Shown here piece after piece: positions 2,227-61,925 of a stretch of DNA of 64,000 nt. The DNA comes from a virus. The notes beneath the pieces are model-generated. The model was not told where the DNA came from, did no database searches, and saw only the letters and a program-made list of their open reading frames with translations. Location of the stretch: positions 1 to 64,000 of the IMG/VR virus record IMGVR_UViG_3300027911_000001; one strand, 5' to 3'. A program made the translations under genes and the position numbers. Numbering within the stretch: the stretch's first letter is position 1; each line of letters starts with the position of its first letter.

Positions 2227-2493
2227 TTATCCTTTTACGGGCAAACCTCTGGGACCTTTAACGCGTGGAGATTTCATATCAATCATCGCAATTTTTCCAG
2301 TAGTAGGATCTAAGAATTTTTTTTGTCCTTTAGCGTTCACAGAACCAATAGGATCTGGAGTTTTCGCTATATGCGGGCTAGGACTTTTTGAGGGAAGTTT
2401 TTTAACTGATCCGATTGCCCCCTCGGCTTGCGCTTCGGGGTTACTGCTGTGGGGCTCCGAACGGTCCCTCCTTGGGAACCGCAGGTTGCTCAT
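2227..2493 (-). CDS. small basic Gly/Pro/Lys-rich protein, start uncertain
   Basis: Only ORF filling the 214 nt between the stop of 2441..4090 and the start of 1376..2224. The first in-frame ATG is at 2493. The track ORF runs to a TTG at 2652, in the +1 frame over the acidic tail of the upstream gene. Confidence 0.35.
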   Translation of the reverse strand: MSNLRFPRRDRSEPHSSNPEAQAEGAIGSVKKLPSKSPSPHIAKTPDPIGSVNAKGQKKFLDPTTGKIAMIDMKSPRVKGPRGLPVKG

Positions 2494-4090
2494 TTTCTTT
2501 ATCAGAATGTCCGCAATTAGGACAGCTGTCGTCGGCTGGGACTTCTTGTGGGGCTTCCTCTTGAGGAAACTCTTGTTCGGCTCCGGGCTGTTCTTCTGGA
2601 ACAGCCCCCCCTTCGATTTCATTAACTTCTTGTTCGGCTTCTCCGCCATCAATACCAGCTAGAGAGCAGAGTTCGATGAGTGCGCGTAACAAAGATATGC
2701 ATGAGGAATATAACTCTGGGGCTTGATCTTTTGCTTTATCCAAAATAGCTTTTTGAGATTTGAATCCTTCCAAAGCTTCGCCAATCATATTGATAACCTT
2801 TTCTTTTTGAATATCATCGGCATGCTGGTCTAGGCCATCATTCATGACATTTAAAAGAGAAGAGTCTTCTTCGGCTTCATCTTCGCTAAGTCCCATATCT
2901 TGCTGTTTGTCATCGTAATCTGCGGGATGACTGACGCCATCAGAATCCATGCCGTCAATCATGTCTTTGTGATTTTCGGCGTGTTGATCCAAAACTTCTT
3001 CTACCGAATCTTCGGGACCGCTTCCAATTGAATCGGCAAAATCTTTAGCATTATCTAAATGTTGATCCAGTATGCTTTCGATGTCTTCGCCATGCTCATC
3101 GCAAGTACAGCTTGGACAATGTCTATCTGCGCCCATATCTTCGGCTTCGGTTTCTTCAGCCAAATCAGAGGTAGCATCTTCGATAGGCATATCCGCTTGA
3201 GGCTCAATTTGTTCGCCATCGCCAGGAAGATATTTCAAATCACTAGGCCTGTCTTCTCTAGGTTGAGCTTCGCTTTCAGGAGCTTCACCTTCAGCTTGTC
3301 CATGGTATCCTTTGGGATCTGGTTTAGGTATCATAGGGCCTTCTTCTCCTGGATTTGCAGGTTCTTCGTTCATTACCCGATCACACTCTGGATAGTCGGC
3401 GGAAACAGCTTCAGGCAATCTAGGTTTAGCTTTAAGGTTAGGTTTTTCAATTACGGGTCTTGGCTCATCGTTAGCTTCATAGGATTCTTGTCTAGCTTCA
3501 GGCTCACTGTTTTTATACCCAGAATCATAACCATGATTGTTATCTTTTTTTGGAGGCTCAGAGAGAGTAGGTTCATTTTCTTCTGAATCAGTCCCTTCAG
3601 GAAGAACTTGATCAGAAGGCTCAATTGGATCAGTAACAGCCAGGATAGCTTTTTGTTCTGGGGAATCTCCAGACTCTTGATCTCTTTCTTCTTGAATTTT
3701 TTGAGAATGCTTTTCAGAATTGTCACTATATTGAACTACTTTGTTTTTACCGGTTTCTTTTGCTTCCAAAAGAGCTTTACCGGCTTCGCTTGGTCTAGAG
3801 CCATACCCAATAGATAGGGTAGATCCTATCATGTATTCATAGTCTTTTCTAAGTTGTTCTAAATCGTTTACGGCTTCTGCAGGAGCCTCGAAAACCCCTT
3901 CATCTCCACCGAGACTTATTTTTCTTCCACCACGAGCTTCGAAAAATTCTTGAACCATTTCATTAGCGGCTGTGATAGATTCAGAAATACGGCTAATCTC
4001 TTCAATATTGTCGTCTAATAGAGCGGCGGCGTGTCTTTTGCCGATCTCATCTCCATCAGTTGCAAAGTAAAGAACGTTTTGGTTACCCAT
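2441..4090 (-). CDS. minimal GGDEF/mCpol-like palm (nucleotide-cyclase-type) domain fused to a ~420-aa acidic low-complexity tail
   Basis: The first ~125 aa carry, in order, YFATDGDEIGK, SLGGDEGVF, TLSIGYG and AGKALLEAKETGKNKV. These parallel the GGDEF-domain blocks DxDxFKxxND, GGDEF, SxGxA and ADxALYxAKxxGRNR. The rest is D/E/P-rich with two CxxC pairs. Confidence 0.6.
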   Translation of the reverse strand: MGNQNVLYFATDGDEIGKRHAAALLDDNIEEISRISESITAANEMVQEFFEARGGRKISLGGDEGVFEAPAEAVNDLEQLRKDYEYMIGSTLSIGYGSRPSEAGKALLEAKETGKNKVVQYSDNSEKHSQKIQEERDQESGDSPEQKAILAVTDPIEPSDQVLPEGTDSEENEPTLSEPPKKDNNHGYDSGYKNSEPEARQESYEANDEPRPVIEKPNLKAKPRLPEAVSADYPECDRVMNEEPANPGEEGPMIPKPDPKGYHGQAEGEAPESEAQPREDRPSDLKYLPGDGEQIEPQADMPIEDATSDLAEETEAEDMGADRHCPSCTCDEHGEDIESILDQHLDNAKDFADSIGSGPEDSVEEVLDQHAENHKDMIDGMDSDGVSHPADYDDKQQDMGLSEDEAEEDSSLLNVMNDGLDQHADDIQKEKVINMIGEALEGFKSQKAILDKAKDQAPELYSSCISLLRALIELCSLAGIDGGEAEQEVNEIEGGAVPEEQPGAEQEFPQEEAPQEVPADDSCPNCGHSDKENEQPAVPKEGPFGAPQQ

Positions 4091-49034: not shown

Positions 49035-49505
49035 ATGAACGCTAAAGAATTCGCAATAGCAGCCCATGGAGAACAGAAATACGGAGATTTGCCGTACTCT
49101 TATCATTTGGAAAAAGTAGCGGAAGCTTTAGAAAGATTTGGCTATAACGATCCAGAGCTTATATCAGCTGCATGGTTACATGATGTGGTAGAGGATACCG
49201 ATACCACCATAGAAGAAGTAAGAAAAGAGTTTGGCGATAGAGTTGCTGAATTGGTTTTCGCTGTTACAAACGAGCCTGGCATTAATCGAAAAGAAAGACA
49301 TTCTAAGACATATATTAAGATTAAAAAATTAAGTGATGCTATCGTTTTAAAGTTAGCGGACAGAATAGCTAATACTGAATCTTCTATAGAAACTAAGTCT
49401 AAATTATTAGGTATGTACAAAAAAGAATTTCCTCATTTTAAGGAAGCATTAAAAGGAACTCAAGCCCTGGAAATGTGGGATTACTTAGAAAGTATATCCA
49501 AGTAA
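49035..49505 (+). CDS. HD-domain hydrolase, SpoT/Mesh1-type small alarmone hydrolase-like
   Basis: AAHGEQKYGDLPYSYHLEKVA ... AAWLHDVVEDT ... LADRIAN match the HD_4-type blocks. Confidence 0.75.
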   Translation: MNAKEFAIAAHGEQKYGDLPYSYHLEKVAEALERFGYNDPELISAAWLHDVVEDTDTTIEEVRKEFGDRVAELVFAVTNEPGINRKERHSKTYIKIKKLSDAIVLKLADRIANTESSIETKSKLLGMYKKEFPHFKEALKGTQALEMWDYLESISK

Positions 49506-50639: not shown

Positions 50640-50652
50640 GCTATGAATTTAC

Positions 50653-50681
50653 TTGACAAACAATCCTAACCCTGATAATCT
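50653..50681 (+). promoter_or_regulatory. consensus sigma70-type promoter (TTGACA-17-TAATCT)
   Basis: The predicted +1 at about G50688 is the first base of the terminal helix of the RNA candidate. Confidence 0.65.
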
Positions 50682-50687
50682 GTAAAA

Positions 50688-50803
50688 GTAGGCCGGACCC
50701 GTGTAATGGCCTGTCTTGGATGGTCACCCGCTAAATACGGTCGCGGCCAGAGCTGTCGTGAGATACCTCTGCGATGTAGGTTCAAGTCCTATCGGTCTAC
50801 GCA
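50688..50803 (+). ncRNA. tRNA-like structured RNA candidate (not a canonical tRNA)
   Basis: An 8-bp terminal helix, GTAGGCCG (50688-95) with CGGTCTAC (50793-800), abuts a canonical T-arm GTAGG-TTCAAGT-CCTAT (50776-92). About 80 nt of GC-rich interior with further helices. No encoded CCA. Confidence 0.5.
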
Positions 50804-50817
50804 TTTTAAGGAGTTTT

Positions 50818-51018
50818 ATGAAATTATACGAACGATACGCAGAAGAATGGGTAGCTGATAGGATTCATCATGATGAACCCAGATCTGCTCAAACCGCTTA
50901 TAAGGCAGGCTTTTCCGTAGCCCTTCAATTGGCCGCTGTAGTTGGAAGACTTGCTCAGTTAGAACGTAACGTAGTAGACATAGAGATAATGAAGATTTTA
51001 GAAAGAGAAGATGGTTAG
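50818..51018 (+). CDS. small hypothetical protein
   Basis: Start moved to ATG 50818 (MKLYERY...) after AAGGAG. The track's 34-aa N-terminal extension covers the RNA candidate. Confidence 0.55.
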   Translation: MKLYERYAEEWVADRIHHDEPRSAQTAYKAGFSVALQLAAVVGRLAQLERNVVDIEIMKILEREDG

Positions 51019-59950: not shown

Positions 59951-60934
59951 ATGAACTCTAAGGTCATCAAGTCAATTCTCAATAAGAAGCTAAATCAATG
60001 GGTTGAGTCTATAAAAGACGACAAAGTCAAACAACTTGTTAAAAAGAACACAATTGTAACCGGCGGATCCATCGCCTCCATGCTTTTGGGCGAAGAATAC
60101 AAAGATATCGATGTTTATTTTAAAGATAAGCAGACGACTTATTTGGTGGCCCAATATTACGCTCAAGAATTCAATAAAGCTCATCCGGATAAAGTAAAAG
60201 CCTTCGTTGTCGATGGAGAAGTTGATTTTAGTAATGGAACATTGATCAACCCAACTCTGATGCGCGAGTTCAGTCACAATGCTGGCGTACTTAGGAATGT
60301 TACCCCAGATAGGGTAAAGATCCTAATTAATTCTGTAGGCGTAGTAGCTGAAAATGAAGATGTATTAAAAGCTCCCTTCGAGGATGCCGTTCAAGCTATT
60401 ACTGATGCAGACCATATTGATGAAAATGCCTTAGAAGGTGTGGGAGATAAAAAAGATCCCTATCGAGCTGTATTTTTAAGTAGCAACGCTATTACGCTGG
60501 CAGACAAAATTCAACTAATTGTCAGATTCTATGGTGATCCTGAAAAGGTTCACGAATCTTTTGATTTCGTCCATTGCACCAATTATTACGATTACGGTAC
60601 TAAGGAATTGGTCTTAAAAAAAGAAGCCCTCGAATGTTTGATGGCTAAAGAACTTCGGTATATGGGTTCAAAATATCCCGTTTGCTCTATTATAAGGACC
60701 AGAAAATTTATTAAGCGCGGTTTTAATATTAATGCAGGTCAATATCTGAAGATGATGTTCCAGATATCTCAATTGGATCTAACCAATCTAGATGTTTTGG
60801 ATGAGCAACTTGTTGGTGTAGACAGCGCATACTTTAGTCACCTAATTAATGCATTGAGAACAAAACAAGAGTCCGATCCGACCTTTACAGTAGACAGCAC
60901 TTATCTTGGTACACTAATCGATAGAATTTTTTAA
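59951..60934 (+). CDS. pol-beta-superfamily nucleotidyltransferase-like protein (CCA-adding/poly(A)-polymerase-like head)
   Basis: IVTGGSIASMLLGEEYKDIDVYF fits hG[GS]-x9-13-DhD. The later FLSSNAITLAD resembles the RRDxTxNA block. Confidence 0.4.
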   Translation: MNSKVIKSILNKKLNQWVESIKDDKVKQLVKKNTIVTGGSIASMLLGEEYKDIDVYFKDKQTTYLVAQYYAQEFNKAHPDKVKAFVVDGEVDFSNGTLINPTLMREFSHNAGVLRNVTPDRVKILINSVGVVAENEDVLKAPFEDAVQAITDADHIDENALEGVGDKKDPYRAVFLSSNAITLADKIQLIVRFYGDPEKVHESFDFVHCTNYYDYGTKELVLKKEALECLMAKELRYMGSKYPVCSIIRTRKFIKRGFNINAGQYLKMMFQISQLDLTNLDVLDEQLVGVDSAYFSHLINALRTKQESDPTFTVDSTYLGTLIDRIF

Positions 60935-60944
60935 GGAGCAACCC

Positions 60945-61925
60945 ATGTCCGACGAAAGTGATTTTGAAGAATTTGTAAGATTGACCGATAGGTTTGAAAA
61001 GCCGTCTAGAGTTGGAAGATCCGTATTTCCTACTAGTGCTGAAGAGCCCATCGAATCCAAGGACAGGATAGTTTCTCCTGGTCAGCCCACTCAATATGCC
61101 TTATTTGATGATGGGTATAAGCCCACTACCTCGACCGTTAGATTTCTTCCTTCTGGATCTTATGTCGTTAACGTAAGCCAACACGGACCCTATGTTTCCC
61201 CAATGCCCGAGCCATCAGGCCTTCTTTTGGAATTGCCCGAGATGCGTTCCGATGACATCATTAAGTTGGTTCAAAATTTCTGGGATTCGGAAAAAGACTA
61301 TAAAGAAGGAAACGAATTTGTAATCGGAGGCGCCATATTTAAGCAGGGACTCTTAATTTATGGCCCTCCAGGGTCAGGAAAATCTTGTACTCTAAAGATC
61401 TTGTCTAAAAAACTTATCGAACGTGAAGGACTTGTATTTTATTCTTCCGTGCATCCTATGCATTTGGGAAATTTTTTATCTGATTTCTCTAAAATTGAAA
61501 CACAAAGAAAGATCATTGTAATTTTAGAAGATATCGATAGTCAAATCGAACAATTTGGAGAGTCTAATTTTCTAGAAGTTTTAGATAGCGCCAAAACTAT
61601 TGATAATGTTTTATTCGTAGCTACAACCAACTATCCGGAGAGACTGGATCCAAGAATTTATAACAGACCTGGGCGCTTCGCAAATGTAGTTAAGGTTGGA
61701 TATCCTACTATAAAAGCAAGAGAGGCTTACTTAAAGGCTATTCTAAAAAATCATAAGGATATCCCATATATCGTAGAGCATTCAGATGGCTTTACGGTGG
61801 ACCACCTAAGCTCTTTGGTAAATTCAGTTTATCGAGAGAAGAAAGAACTCAAATCAGAGATTGAGCGTCTTAGGACTCTTTTTAAGGTTCCGAAGGCCAA
61901 CGAATCGTTAAAGATTGGATTTTAA
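60945..61925 (+). CDS. classical AAA+ ATPase
   Basis: Walker A is GPPGSGKS and Walker B is IIVILEDID. The second region of homology is ATTNYPERLDPRIYNRPGRF. Confidence 0.85.
   Translation: MSDESDFEEFVRLTDRFEKPSRVGRSVFPTSAEEPIESKDRIVSPGQPTQYALFDDGYKPTTSTVRFLPSGSYVVNVSQHGPYVSPMPEPSGLLLELPEMRSDDIIKLVQNFWDSEKDYKEGNEFVIGGAIFKQGLLIYGPPGSGKSCTLKILSKKLIEREGLVFYSSVHPMHLGNFLSDFSKIETQRKIIVILEDIDSQIEQFGESNFLEVLDSAKTIDNVLFVATTNYPERLDPRIYNRPGRFANVVKVGYPTIKAREAYLKAILKNHKDIPYIVEHSDGFTVDHLSSLVNSVYREKKELKSEIERLRTLFKVPKANESLKIGF

What the first reader, a model, noticed from the sequence alone, without database searches (positions are those of the whole stretch)
50653..50803. Promoter-defined ~115-nt RNA with a canonical tRNA T-arm stacked on an 8-bp terminal helix, but not a tRNA
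- A textbook sigma70 promoter (TTGACA-17-TAATCT) predicts a +1 at G50688.
- From that very base, GTAGGCCG pairs with CGGTCTAC (50793-50800; 8 bp, one G-U).
- Immediately 5' of the closing strand is GTAGG-TTCAAGT-CCTAT. This is a 5-bp stem with the GTTCAAGTC T-loop consensus, placed exactly as in the acceptor/T-arm coaxial stack of tRNAs.
- The remaining ~80 nt are GC-rich and contain other helices (for example 50707-11/50745-49 and 50748-52/50767-71).
- No D-arm or anticodon-arm geometry fits, and CCA is not encoded; the sequence after the helix is ...ACGCA.
- The track ORF that covers it only becomes plausible from ATG 50818, which has an SD.
- It could be a tRNA-like decoy or mimic: a substrate for a CCA-adding-like enzyme (see 59951..60934), a target decoy for tRNA-directed defence nucleases, or a Y-RNA/tmRNA-like module.
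Basis: partly seen in the sequence, partly recalled or inferred. Interest (0 to 1): 0.65.

Follow-up and report, generated by a model that had tools for sequence, protein, structure and literature searches.

The report
Lone tRNA-shaped leader RNA in phage
A freshwater phage carries a 113-base stretch, between an early promoter and the first gene of an operon, that keeps the top half of a tRNA but cannot decode. It is most likely a tRNA-derived leader or small RNA, but it has no relatives in any database, so its function is unproven.

Summary
Window 50688-50800 (+) has an 8-bp terminal helix directly abutting a canonical T-arm (GTAGG/TTCAAGT/CCTAT). It starts 7 nt after an extended -10 promoter, is GC-rich (57% against 40%) and scores as non-coding. 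ARAGORN and Rfam do not call it a tRNA; the best match is tRNA-Sec at 22 bits, below the threshold of 47.

When aligned to real phage tRNAs, a 47-nt arm sits in the D-arm position. A 10-bp arm capped by GUGA sits in the anticodon-arm position.

The topology matches T4 species 1 RNA (rnaC), but an rnaC covariance model scores it at only 5 bits.

Its tRNA-like fold is unusually unstable. Acceptor pairing probability is 0.43-0.65, against 0.93-0.99 in real tRNAs. A 5' hairpin competes for the acceptor strand. In sampled structures the ribosome-binding site is open when the tRNA fold forms (about 80%) and mostly closed when it does not (7-28%).

My best reading, at 0.38, is a tRNA-derived cis-acting leader similar in principle to the yjdF riboswitch. 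The rivals are a processed stable small RNA and a decaying tRNA relic.

No homologue was found anywhere, so covariation could not be tested. No RNA reads exist. The "CCA-adding-like" gene is a Gad2 family protein.

The parts
50653..50658 (+). -35 hexamer TTGACA
   Evidence: This promoter class is enriched 8 against 0.83 expected. A relative has the same promoter in the same position (L034).
50673..50681 (+). Extended -10: TG, one base, then TAATCT
   Evidence: Other window promoters have the same TAnnCT form.
50688..50695 (+). 5' strand of the 8-bp terminal (acceptor-like) helix, GUAGGCCG. G50688 is the predicted +1 and corresponds to G-1 in a tRNA-His reading.
50696..50742 (+). Arm A, 47 nt, in the D-arm position. 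Stems 9-12/52-55 and 14-17/48-51 enclose a poorly structured interior that contains UAAUGG.
   Evidence: Covariance-model alignments to real tRNAs place it at the D-arm position.
50744..50748 (+). Competitor strand CGGCC. It pairs with GGCCG (50691-50695) and extends arm A into a 5' hairpin that excludes the acceptor helix.
50746..50772 (+). Arm B, in the anticodon-arm position. CAGAG/CUCUG is followed by a C-C mismatch and UGUC/GAUA, capped by a GUGA tetraloop (50758-50761). There is no 7-nt anticodon loop.
50772..50775 (+). 4-nt variable-loop equivalent, CGAU
50776..50792 (+). T-arm GUAGG-UUCAAGU-CCUAU, identical to the T-arm of real phage tRNA-Thr and tRNA-Arg genes
50793..50800 (+). 3' strand of the terminal helix, CGGUCUAC. 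C50800 corresponds to C73 in a tRNA-His reading. It is followed by GCA; no CCA is encoded.
50801..50813 (+). AU-rich trailer GCAUUUU plus the Shine-Dalgarno sequence AAGGAG (50808-50813). In the non-tRNA fold, AGGA can pair with UCCU of the T-arm 3' strand.
50818..51018 (+). 66-aa ORFan, the first gene of the downstream + strand operon
   Evidence: Codon score 0.49. The only database match is the protein itself, with no homologue among 5.8 billion proteins. It is called as a gene in the source contig.

Best explanation
The element is a tRNA-derived RNA that cannot decode. It forms the 5' leader of an early operon and acts in cis.

Proposed mechanism:
1. Host RNA polymerase starts at G50688.
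2. The first 61 nt can fold into a 5' hairpin that uses GGCCG of the acceptor strand.
3. Once the 3' strand is made, the RNA can instead adopt a four-way tRNA-like fold: an 8-bp acceptor stacked on the T-arm, with two long arms in place of the D and anticodon arms.
4. In the tRNA-like fold the 5' end is base-paired and the Shine-Dalgarno sequence 7 nt downstream is open. [quoted passage not shown]
5. The balance between the two folds therefore sets the stability and translation of the 66-aa ORFan operon. Whatever stabilises the tRNA shape, whether a tRNA-binding protein, a ligand or temperature, would turn expression up. This is the logic shown for the tRNA-Lys-derived yjdF riboswitch and for tRNAs grafted as mRNA leaders.

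Status of each step:
- Shown: the sequence features, promoter class, non-coding character, tRNA-like layout and predicted bistability.
- Inferred: transcription from +1, the switch itself, its trigger, and any effect on expression.
For: - The top half of a tRNA is intact and unlikely to be chance: 2 of 300 shuffles and a GC spike in the top 0.5% of windows.
- The promoter is credible and positionally conserved.
- Other promoters of this class have leaders of roughly 10-45 nt. This one has about 130 nt, of which 113 form the element.
- The Shine-Dalgarno sequence lies 7 nt after the helix with no terminator between them.
- The region is non-coding by codon score.
- A covariance model of the element aligns full-length to real tRNAs, with arm A at the D-arm position and arm B at the anticodon-arm position (22-26 bits).
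- Bistability: the cloverleaf scores -37.5 and the alternative -38.2 kcal/mol. The first 61 nt form a -23 kcal/mol hairpin.
- Acceptor pairing probability is 0.65 for the element alone and 0.43-0.49 with the ribosome-binding site included. It is 0.93-0.99 in 12 real phage tRNAs and 0.79-0.97 in T4 rnaC.
- In Boltzmann samples the Shine-Dalgarno sequence is free in 79-84% of structures with the acceptor formed, and in 7-28% of those without it.
- Precedent: yjdF is a tRNA-Lys homologue whose T-arm equivalent pairs with the ribosome-binding site in the off state, and cis-tRNA leaders raise translation 2- to 6.3-fold (PMC9142559).
Against: - There is a single sequence and no homologue in IMG/VR, JGI metagenomes, GTDB genomes or INPHARED. 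No covariation test is therefore possible.
- Relatives of the upstream gene lack the element.
- No RNA-seq run holds it.
- The folding energy is not better than shuffles (z = -0.9).
- The complementarity between the T-arm strand and the Shine-Dalgarno sequence is short: 6 pairs with a mismatch, against 9-11 nt in yjdF.
- The coupling between fold and Shine-Dalgarno accessibility may arise for any T-arm placed next to an AGGA.
- The GGCC repeats that create the competing helix could be fortuitous.
- A simple hairpin would be enough for 5' protection, so this does not explain why a T-loop is kept.
- No trigger is known.
Confidence: 0.38

Rival explanations
1. It is a processed, stable, trans-acting tRNA-like small RNA of the same kind as T4 species 1 RNA. 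Host tRNA 3'-end enzymes (RNase E at GCA|UUUU, or RNase Z/BN) would cut after the acceptor. RNase P would trim read-through transcripts. CCA would be added. The resulting ~113-116-nt RNA would then engage tRNA-binding proteins as a mimic or decoy.
For: - The retained part is exactly the acceptor/T-arm minihelix, the unit that RNase P, RNase Z and the CCA-adding enzyme are known to recognise (established knowledge).
- The topology matches T4 rnaC. That RNA has its T-arm abutting a 7-bp terminal helix and two long arms, supported by 22 of 44 compensatory pairs across 7 Tevenvirinae sequences.
- rnaC is expressed and its function is still unknown (PMC9697503).
- There is an AU-rich trailer after the helix.
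- The phage is rich in counter-defence genes: Gad2, NAD salvage and a Macro domain.
Against: - The tRNA fold is far less stable than in real tRNAs or rnaC.
- There is no D-loop partner for the T-loop elbow.
- It is not in a tRNA cluster; no tRNA was found in about 84 kb of the genome.
- The rnaC covariance model gives 5.0 bits, E = 4.4.
- Cleavage would leave the downstream mRNA with a short monophosphorylated leader.
- There is no transcript evidence.
Confidence: 0.22
2. It is a decaying tRNA gene, possibly a former tRNA-His, tRNA-Arg or tRNA-Thr. A few insertions or a recombination disrupted the D-arm region (+33 nt) and the anticodon loop (+7 nt). It is now a functionless passenger in the 5' UTR.
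For: - The T-arm is identical to that of real phage tRNA-Thr and tRNA-Arg genes. The acceptor resembles both tRNA-Arg(TCT) (GTA-T-CCG against GTA-GG-CCG) and a phage tRNA-His (GUAG..CUAC).
- The element is unique to this lineage and absent in relatives.
- The predicted structure is weak and bistable.
- The internal region 18-47 is poorly structured.
Against: - All 13 bp of the top half and the T-loop consensus are intact, while the bottom half is unrecognisable.
- GC remains at 57% in a 40% GC genome.
- The helix starts exactly at the predicted +1.
- The anticodon loop is replaced by a tidy GNRA-capped extension rather than random damage.
Confidence: 0.27
3. It is a chance resemblance in an ordinary 5' UTR, or part of a longer protein (ORF from TTG 50716) or of an opposite-strand ORF.
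For: - An open frame runs from 50716 into the 66-aa ORF.
- The source annotation called a 46-aa ORF on the minus strand over this region.
- The fold z-score is -0.9.
Against: - The T-arm plus 8-bp helix arose in 0.7% of shuffles.
- The GC outlier.
- The extension's codon score of 0.002 is lower than every 102-nt window of the genes.
- There is no Shine-Dalgarno sequence before TTG 50716, while there is a perfect AAGGAG before ATG 50818.
Confidence: 0.05

Closest known systems
Bacteriophage T4 species 1 RNA (rnaC, 139 nt) and its Tevenvirinae homologues
   Same: - Phage-encoded and non-decoding.
- A canonical T-arm directly abuts a terminal helix formed by the 5' and 3' ends.
- There are two long arms, the second about 10 bp, in place of the D and anticodon arms.
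- No CCA is encoded.
- Function is unknown.

   Different: - No detectable sequence or covariance-model similarity (5.0 bits, E = 4.4).
- rnaC lies inside tRNA clusters at the end of an operon and folds very stably (z = -4.6).
- This element is solitary, lies first after a promoter, sits 7 nt from a Shine-Dalgarno sequence, has an 8-bp perfect helix, and is bistable (z = -0.9).
yjdF riboswitch (RF01764), a tRNA-Lys-derived leader, and engineered cis-tRNA leaders
   Same: - A four-helix-junction, tRNA-derived fold in a 5' UTR immediately upstream of the ribosome-binding site.
- An alternative fold in which the T-arm equivalent pairs with the ribosome-binding site.
- The tRNA-like state favours translation.
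(PMC9142559)
   Different: - No Rfam match.
- Complementarity to the ribosome-binding site is much shorter.
- No conserved D-loop GG is shown to pair with the T-loop.
- No ligand is known.
- The acceptor is intact and 8 bp long.
- The context is a phage.
tRNA-His (G-1:C73, 8-bp acceptor) and tRNA-Sec (13-bp acceptor/T stack)
   Same: - 8 + 5 = 13 stacked base pairs.
- G at -1 paired with C at 73.
- A 4-nt variable loop.
- GUG at the tip of the anticodon-position arm.
- A phage tRNA-His is the top covariance-model match (26.3 bits).
- The tRNA-Sec model aligns end to end (22 bits).
   Different: - No D-arm.
- No 7-nt anticodon loop.
- Scores are below the thresholds (gathering score 47).
- tRNA-Thr and tRNA-Arg score almost as well (22-25 bits), so the origin is unresolved.
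- No bacterial tRNA-His with this acceptor was found.
tRNA-like domains of tmRNA and of bacterial Y RNAs (YrlA)
   Same: A T-arm plus an acceptor-like helix used as a tRNA mimic within a non-decoding RNA (PMC4201824).
   Different: - No tag ORF or pseudoknots, and no G3:U70 pair.
- ARAGORN finds no tmRNA.
- YrlA has a permuted order (T, acceptor-like loop, D), a GNCGAAN0-1G motif and a neighbouring Ro60 gene. None of these is present here.

Membership tests
canonical tRNA (RF00005 / ARAGORN) | Acceptor helix coaxial with a T-arm carrying the TTCRANY loop | tested here: met
canonical tRNA (RF00005 / ARAGORN) | D-arm, and a 5-bp anticodon stem with a 7-nt loop | tested here: not met
   There are 52 nt where about 19 are expected, and a 14-nt or GUGA-capped region in place of the loop.
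canonical tRNA (RF00005 / ARAGORN) | Detected by tRNA finders at their thresholds | tested here: not met
   ARAGORN finds none. Rfam finds none at gathering scores. Relaxed ARAGORN calls it only below the 80% threshold.
tRNA-Sec (RF01852) | 13-bp acceptor/T stack (8/5 or 9/4) | tested here: met
tRNA-Sec (RF01852) | Model score at or above the gathering score; UCA anticodon; 6-bp D-stem | tested here: not met
   22 bits against 47. The D and anticodon arms are not aligned, and there is no UCA in a 7-nt loop.
tRNA-His | G-1 paired with C73 (8-bp acceptor) | tested here: met
   G50688-C50800. A phage tRNA-His is the top covariance-model match.
tRNA-His | GUG anticodon in a 7-nt loop; D-arm; specific similarity to tRNA-His over other tRNAs | tested here: not met
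   GUG lies in a GUGA tetraloop on a 10-bp arm. tRNA-Thr and tRNA-Arg score within 1-4 bits of tRNA-His.
T4 species 1 RNA (rnaC) | Four-way topology: terminal helix, long arm, ~10-bp arm, abutting T-arm | tested here: met
T4 species 1 RNA (rnaC) | Significant match to a family covariance model | tested here: not met
   R1 gives 5.0 bits, E = 4.4 on 50685-50806.
T4 species 1 RNA (rnaC) | Located in a tRNA gene cluster | tested here: not met
   No tRNA in the window or in 20 kb of flanks.
yjdF riboswitch (RF01764) | Match to the Rfam model | tested here: not met
yjdF riboswitch (RF01764) | tRNA-like four-helix leader next to the ribosome-binding site, with an off state in which the T-arm equivalent pairs with that site | tested here: inconclusive
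   The layout is met. Pairing is 6 bp with a mismatch. The Shine-Dalgarno sequence is free in 79-84% of sampled structures with the acceptor formed, against 7-28% without. This rests on one sequence and on prediction only.
yjdF riboswitch (RF01764) | Ligand-dependent folding | not testable with these tools
   Needs structure probing with candidate ligands or proteins.
tmRNA | tRNA-like domain plus tag reading frame and pseudoknots; G3:U70 | tested here: not met
   ARAGORN tmRNA mode finds none, even when relaxed. There is no plausible tag ORF, and the G-U pair is at 4:69 or 5:68.
Bacterial Y RNA (YrlA) | GNCGAAN0-1G motif, permuted T/acceptor-loop/D order, Ro60 (TROVE) gene within 4 kb | tested here: not met
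   The motif is absent (GCCGGA). The arm order is that of a tRNA. No TROVE domain appears among the genes of about 84 kb. The criteria come from PMC4201824.
C4/CI-type phage antisense RNA | Rfam match and loop complementarity to a downstream target in the same operon | tested here: not met
   There is no Rfam hit. Complementary 9-10-mers occur only at the chance rate and none is near a ribosome-binding site.

The most novel reading that the evidence does not exclude
The leader is a tRNA-His-type mimic (G-1:C73, 13-bp top half, GUG at the tip of the long arm) that works as a switch. A host tRNA-handling protein, such as HisRS, the CCA-adding enzyme or TruB, or a small ligand would capture the tRNA-shaped fold. 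That would turn on an early ORFan operon. This would be a second, independently evolved 'tRNA as riboswitch', and the first in a phage. It would let the phage read the state of the host's tRNA machinery.
Probability: 0.1. Interest if true: 0.75.

Novelty: new variant of a known kind. Interest (0 to 1): 0.4.

Why it matters
Phage tRNA-like RNAs that do not decode have been known since T4 species 1 RNA, yet none has an assigned function. This one sits in an unusually informative place: it runs exactly from a promoter's +1 to 7 nt before a Shine-Dalgarno sequence, and two competing folds are predicted. That makes a simple cis-regulatory hypothesis directly testable with reporters. If it holds, tRNA genes would be shown to be recycled by phages into expression switches. 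It would also give a lead on what T4-type tRNA-like RNAs do. If the element is only a relic, it documents how gene callers place spurious ORFs over decaying tRNA genes.

Tried and rejected
**Homologue searches, all empty or uninformative**
- blastn against INPHARED phages gave only T-arm fragments. One hit sat under a false 'tmRNA' annotation that is really a tRNA-Tyr.
- Exact and degenerate pattern scans of IMG/VR were run. The T-arm 20-mer hit only real tRNA-Thr and tRNA-Arg genes and three insert-bearing tRNAs. The tRNA-His-style pattern hit only the L010 tRNA-His.
- JGI metagenome scans found nothing.
- GTDB genome scans found only one non-tRNA chance hit.

**Synteny**
- The 66-aa ORF has no homologue.
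- The eight homologues of the upstream 101-aa protein were traced to contigs. None carries the element.

**Other tests**
- Paralogues: the covariance model R2 finds only the element itself in the window plus 20 kb of flanks.
- Transcripts: only two DNA runs hold the locus, with no variants, and no RNA runs hold it.
- attP / host tRNA 3'-half idea: no bacterial genome carries the 25-mer.
- Antisense (C4-like) idea: no target was found.
- tmRNA, Y RNA and intron-containing tRNA (ARAGORN -i) readings were rejected.
- 'CCA-adding enzyme' at 59951: rejected in favour of Gad2.
- tRNA-His origin: suggested, but it weakened once all tRNA loci were scored.
- The 10-nt direct repeat that brackets the promoter, element and Shine-Dalgarno sequence is probably chance.

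Full report
**Source**

The window is part of a 164,751-bp freshwater metagenome contig (JGI 3300006162, Ga0075030_100000005). It looks like a phage: it has a major head protein, tail fibres, ribonucleotide reductase, dUTPase and HNH endonucleases. It has no nucleotide-level relative among 50,697 deposited phage genomes.

**Checking the observation**

- TTGACA lies at 50653-50658, followed by a 17-nt spacer and TAATCT at 50676-50681.
- That hexamer alone is weak (3 of 6), so the promoter scanner ignored it. It is preceded by TG, which makes it an extended -10.
- The pattern TTGACA-N17-TAnnnT occurs 8 times in the window against 0.83 expected. Several copies lie just upstream of + strand genes with short leaders (48186, 59905, 9774).
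- A distant relative (L034) has TTGACC-17-TAAGCT at the same place, right after the homologous upstream gene. I therefore accept the promoter.
- G50688 lies 7 nt after the -10.
- From that base, GUAGGCCG pairs with CGGUCUAC (50793-50800). The T-arm GUAGG-UUCAAGU-CCUAU (50776-50792) abuts the closing strand with no spacer.
- A T-arm with an abutting 8-bp closing helix appeared in 2 of 300 Markov-shuffled windows.
- The 113 nt are 56.6% GC against 39.6% for the window, in the top 0.5% of 113-nt windows.
- The in-frame ORF extension from TTG 50716 has a codon-usage score of 0.002. That is lower than every 102-nt window of the phage's genes (0.47 +/- 0.19). The 66-aa ORF from ATG 50818 scores 0.49 and has AAGGAG 4 nt upstream.

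**It is not a tRNA**

- ARAGORN finds no tRNA or tmRNA in the window or in 20 kb of flanking contig.
- Relaxed and intron modes give only a poor 94-nt call below the 80% threshold.
- Rfam gives nothing at gathering scores.
- At permissive thresholds the only hit is tRNA-Sec, end to end on 50688-50800. It scores 22 bits against a gathering score of 47, with the D and anticodon arms replaced by a 52-nt insert.

**Anatomy**

Position 1 is window base 50688.
- Acceptor: 1-8 paired with 106-113.
- Arm A: 9-55, with stems 9-12/52-55 and 14-17/48-51 and a loose interior containing UAAUGG.
- Arm B: 59-85. CAGAG/CUCUG is followed by a C-C mismatch and UGUC/GAUA, closed by a GUGA tetraloop.
- Four-nt linker: CGAU.
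- T-arm: 89-105.

A covariance model built from the element (R2) aligns full-length to real phage tRNAs. Arm A falls at the D-arm position and arm B at the anticodon-arm position. So the top half of a tRNA is intact (13 stacked pairs, consensus T-loop). The bottom half has been remodelled and there is no 7-nt anticodon loop.

The 8th pair, G-1:C73, is the hallmark of tRNA-His. GUG sits at the tip of arm B, and a phage tRNA-His (L010) is the best match at 26.3 bits. However, tRNA-Thr and tRNA-Arg genes that share the T-arm score 22-25 bits. The acceptor can equally be derived from a tRNA-Arg(TCT) by a one-pair insertion. The ancestry is unresolved.

**No relatives**

- The T-arm 20-mer occurs in IMG/VR only in real tRNA-Thr and tRNA-Arg genes and in three tRNAs that carry large inserts.
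- Every pattern that included sequence specific to this element returned nothing in IMG/VR, JGI metagenomes or GTDB genomes, apart from one coding-region chance hit.
- The downstream 66-aa protein has no homologue among 5.8 billion proteins.
- The upstream 101-aa protein has eight homologues. Their contigs show a short leader, a direct gene junction, or an unrelated ~290-nt non-coding stretch downstream, and never this element.
- The element is therefore a lineage-specific occupant of the slot between a conserved promoter and a variable first gene. Covariation cannot be tested.
- Only two DNA runs carry the locus, without variants, and no RNA run does.

**Closest known analogue by shape**

T4 species 1 RNA (rnaC, 139 nt) has the same topology:
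- a canonical T-arm (CCGGG-UUCGAAU-CCCGG) abutting a 7-bp terminal helix;
- a long first arm and a 10-bp second arm.

I aligned seven Tevenvirinae homologues. In the RNAalifold consensus, 22 of 44 pairs carry compensatory changes, including changes in the terminal helix. rnaC is expressed late and its function is still unknown (PMC9697503).

A covariance model of that family scores the present element at only 5.0 bits (E = 4.4), although it aligns over exactly 50685-50806. There are also differences in context and stability: rnaC sits in tRNA clusters and folds very stably (z = -4.6). The resemblance is therefore one of kind, not of family membership.

**The fold is bistable**

- The cloverleaf scores -37.5 kcal/mol and an alternative scores -38.2.
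- In the alternative, GGCCG (4-8) pairs with CGGCC (57-61). This extends arm A into a 5' hairpin that is already worth -23 kcal/mol when only 61 nt have been made.
- Acceptor pairing probability is 0.65 for the element alone and 0.43-0.49 with the ribosome-binding site attached. It is 0.93-0.99 in 12 real phage tRNAs and 0.79-0.97 in rnaC.
- In Boltzmann samples the Shine-Dalgarno sequence is unpaired in 79-84% of structures with the acceptor formed. It is unpaired in only 7-28% of the others. In those, UCCU of the T-arm 3' strand and neighbouring bases pair with AGGA.

This is the logic described for the yjdF riboswitch. That riboswitch is a tRNA-Lys homologue whose T-arm equivalent pairs with the ribosome-binding site in the off state. 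Its tRNA-like state, like authentic tRNAs grafted as leaders, raises translation 2- to 6.3-fold (PMC9142559).

**Verdict on mechanism**

- Cis-acting, tRNA-derived bistable leader: the most likely single mechanism, at 0.38. The sequence features, the layout and the predicted two-state behaviour are shown. Transcription, switching, the trigger and the effect on expression are inferred.
- Excised stable small RNA in the manner of T4 species 1: 0.22. This is weakened by the unstable fold.
- Recently disrupted tRNA gene with no function: 0.27. This fits the uniqueness and weak structure. It fits less well with an untouched 13-bp top half, a GNRA-capped arm, retained GC and a helix that starts at +1.
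- Chance or coding: about 0.05.

**Other corrections**

It has no PDB sequence match and only a weak PHROG nucleotidyltransferase hit.

The Y-RNA, tmRNA and C4-type antisense readings each fail their defining features.

**Score**

The element is real and odd, but it rests on one sequence with no expression or conservation data. It belongs to a known, if poorly understood, kind. Interest: 0.4.

Noticed in passing
L017 3575-3763; L010 1826-2013 (-); L024 4867-5056 and 2147-2294: Unrelated ~170-kb IMG/VR phages carry tRNAs that pass the Rfam tRNA model (about 50 bits). They hold a ~121-nt insert in the anticodon loop (about 75 nt in the fourth case). In the three insert sequences read, the insert is closed by the helix GCUGAGU/ACUCAGC or a near variant. 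ARAGORN misses them and no Rfam intron or ribozyme family matches. They could be small introns or natural 'tRNA-scaffolded' RNAs.
   Followed up: partly
L027 4310-4600; L028 4060-4370: In the closest relatives of the upstream 101-aa gene, the equivalent slot holds a ~290-nt non-coding stretch that includes a GAAA-capped hairpin. It ends just before an AAGGAG. It has no Rfam match and a fold z-score of -1.2.
   Followed up: partly
window 111, 9774, 15734(-), 24542(-), 48186, 50653, 59054(-), 59905; L034 632-660: There is a phage promoter class TTGACA-N17-TAnnCT, in some copies with TG at -15/-14. It occurs 8 times against 0.83 expected. In relative L034 the -10 lies only 7 nt from the ATG, which suggests a leaderless mRNA.
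   Followed up: partly
window 59951-60934 and 60945-61925: A Gad2-family (PF26128, anti-Gabija) protein lies next to an AAA ATPase, behind its own promoter.
   Followed up: partly
window 2441-4090 (-); contig just beyond the window start (L038 11264-13979): A 549-aa protein carries an mCpol domain (PF18182). There is also a cluster of Macro domain, NAPRTase and a phosphoribosyltransferase-like gene, which looks like NAD salvage and counter-defence equipment.
   Followed up: no
window 50642-50651 and 50817-50826: A 10-nt direct repeat (TATGAATTTA / TATGAAATTA) brackets the promoter, the element and the Shine-Dalgarno sequence, and the second copy contains the start codon. About 1.4 such repeats are expected by chance in this stretch, and the promoter is ancestral, so it is probably not a target-site duplication.
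   Followed up: yes
L025 1353-1787 (Vibrio phage D51, OZ196642.1): The deposited 'tmRNA SsrA' annotation spans a run of ordinary tRNA genes (Tyr, Met and others) and is almost certainly a false ARAGORN call.
   Followed up: yes
window 49035-49505: An HD_4 (RelA/SpoT-type hydrolase-like) domain protein lies 1.2 kb upstream of the element, in the same + strand early block.
   Followed up: no
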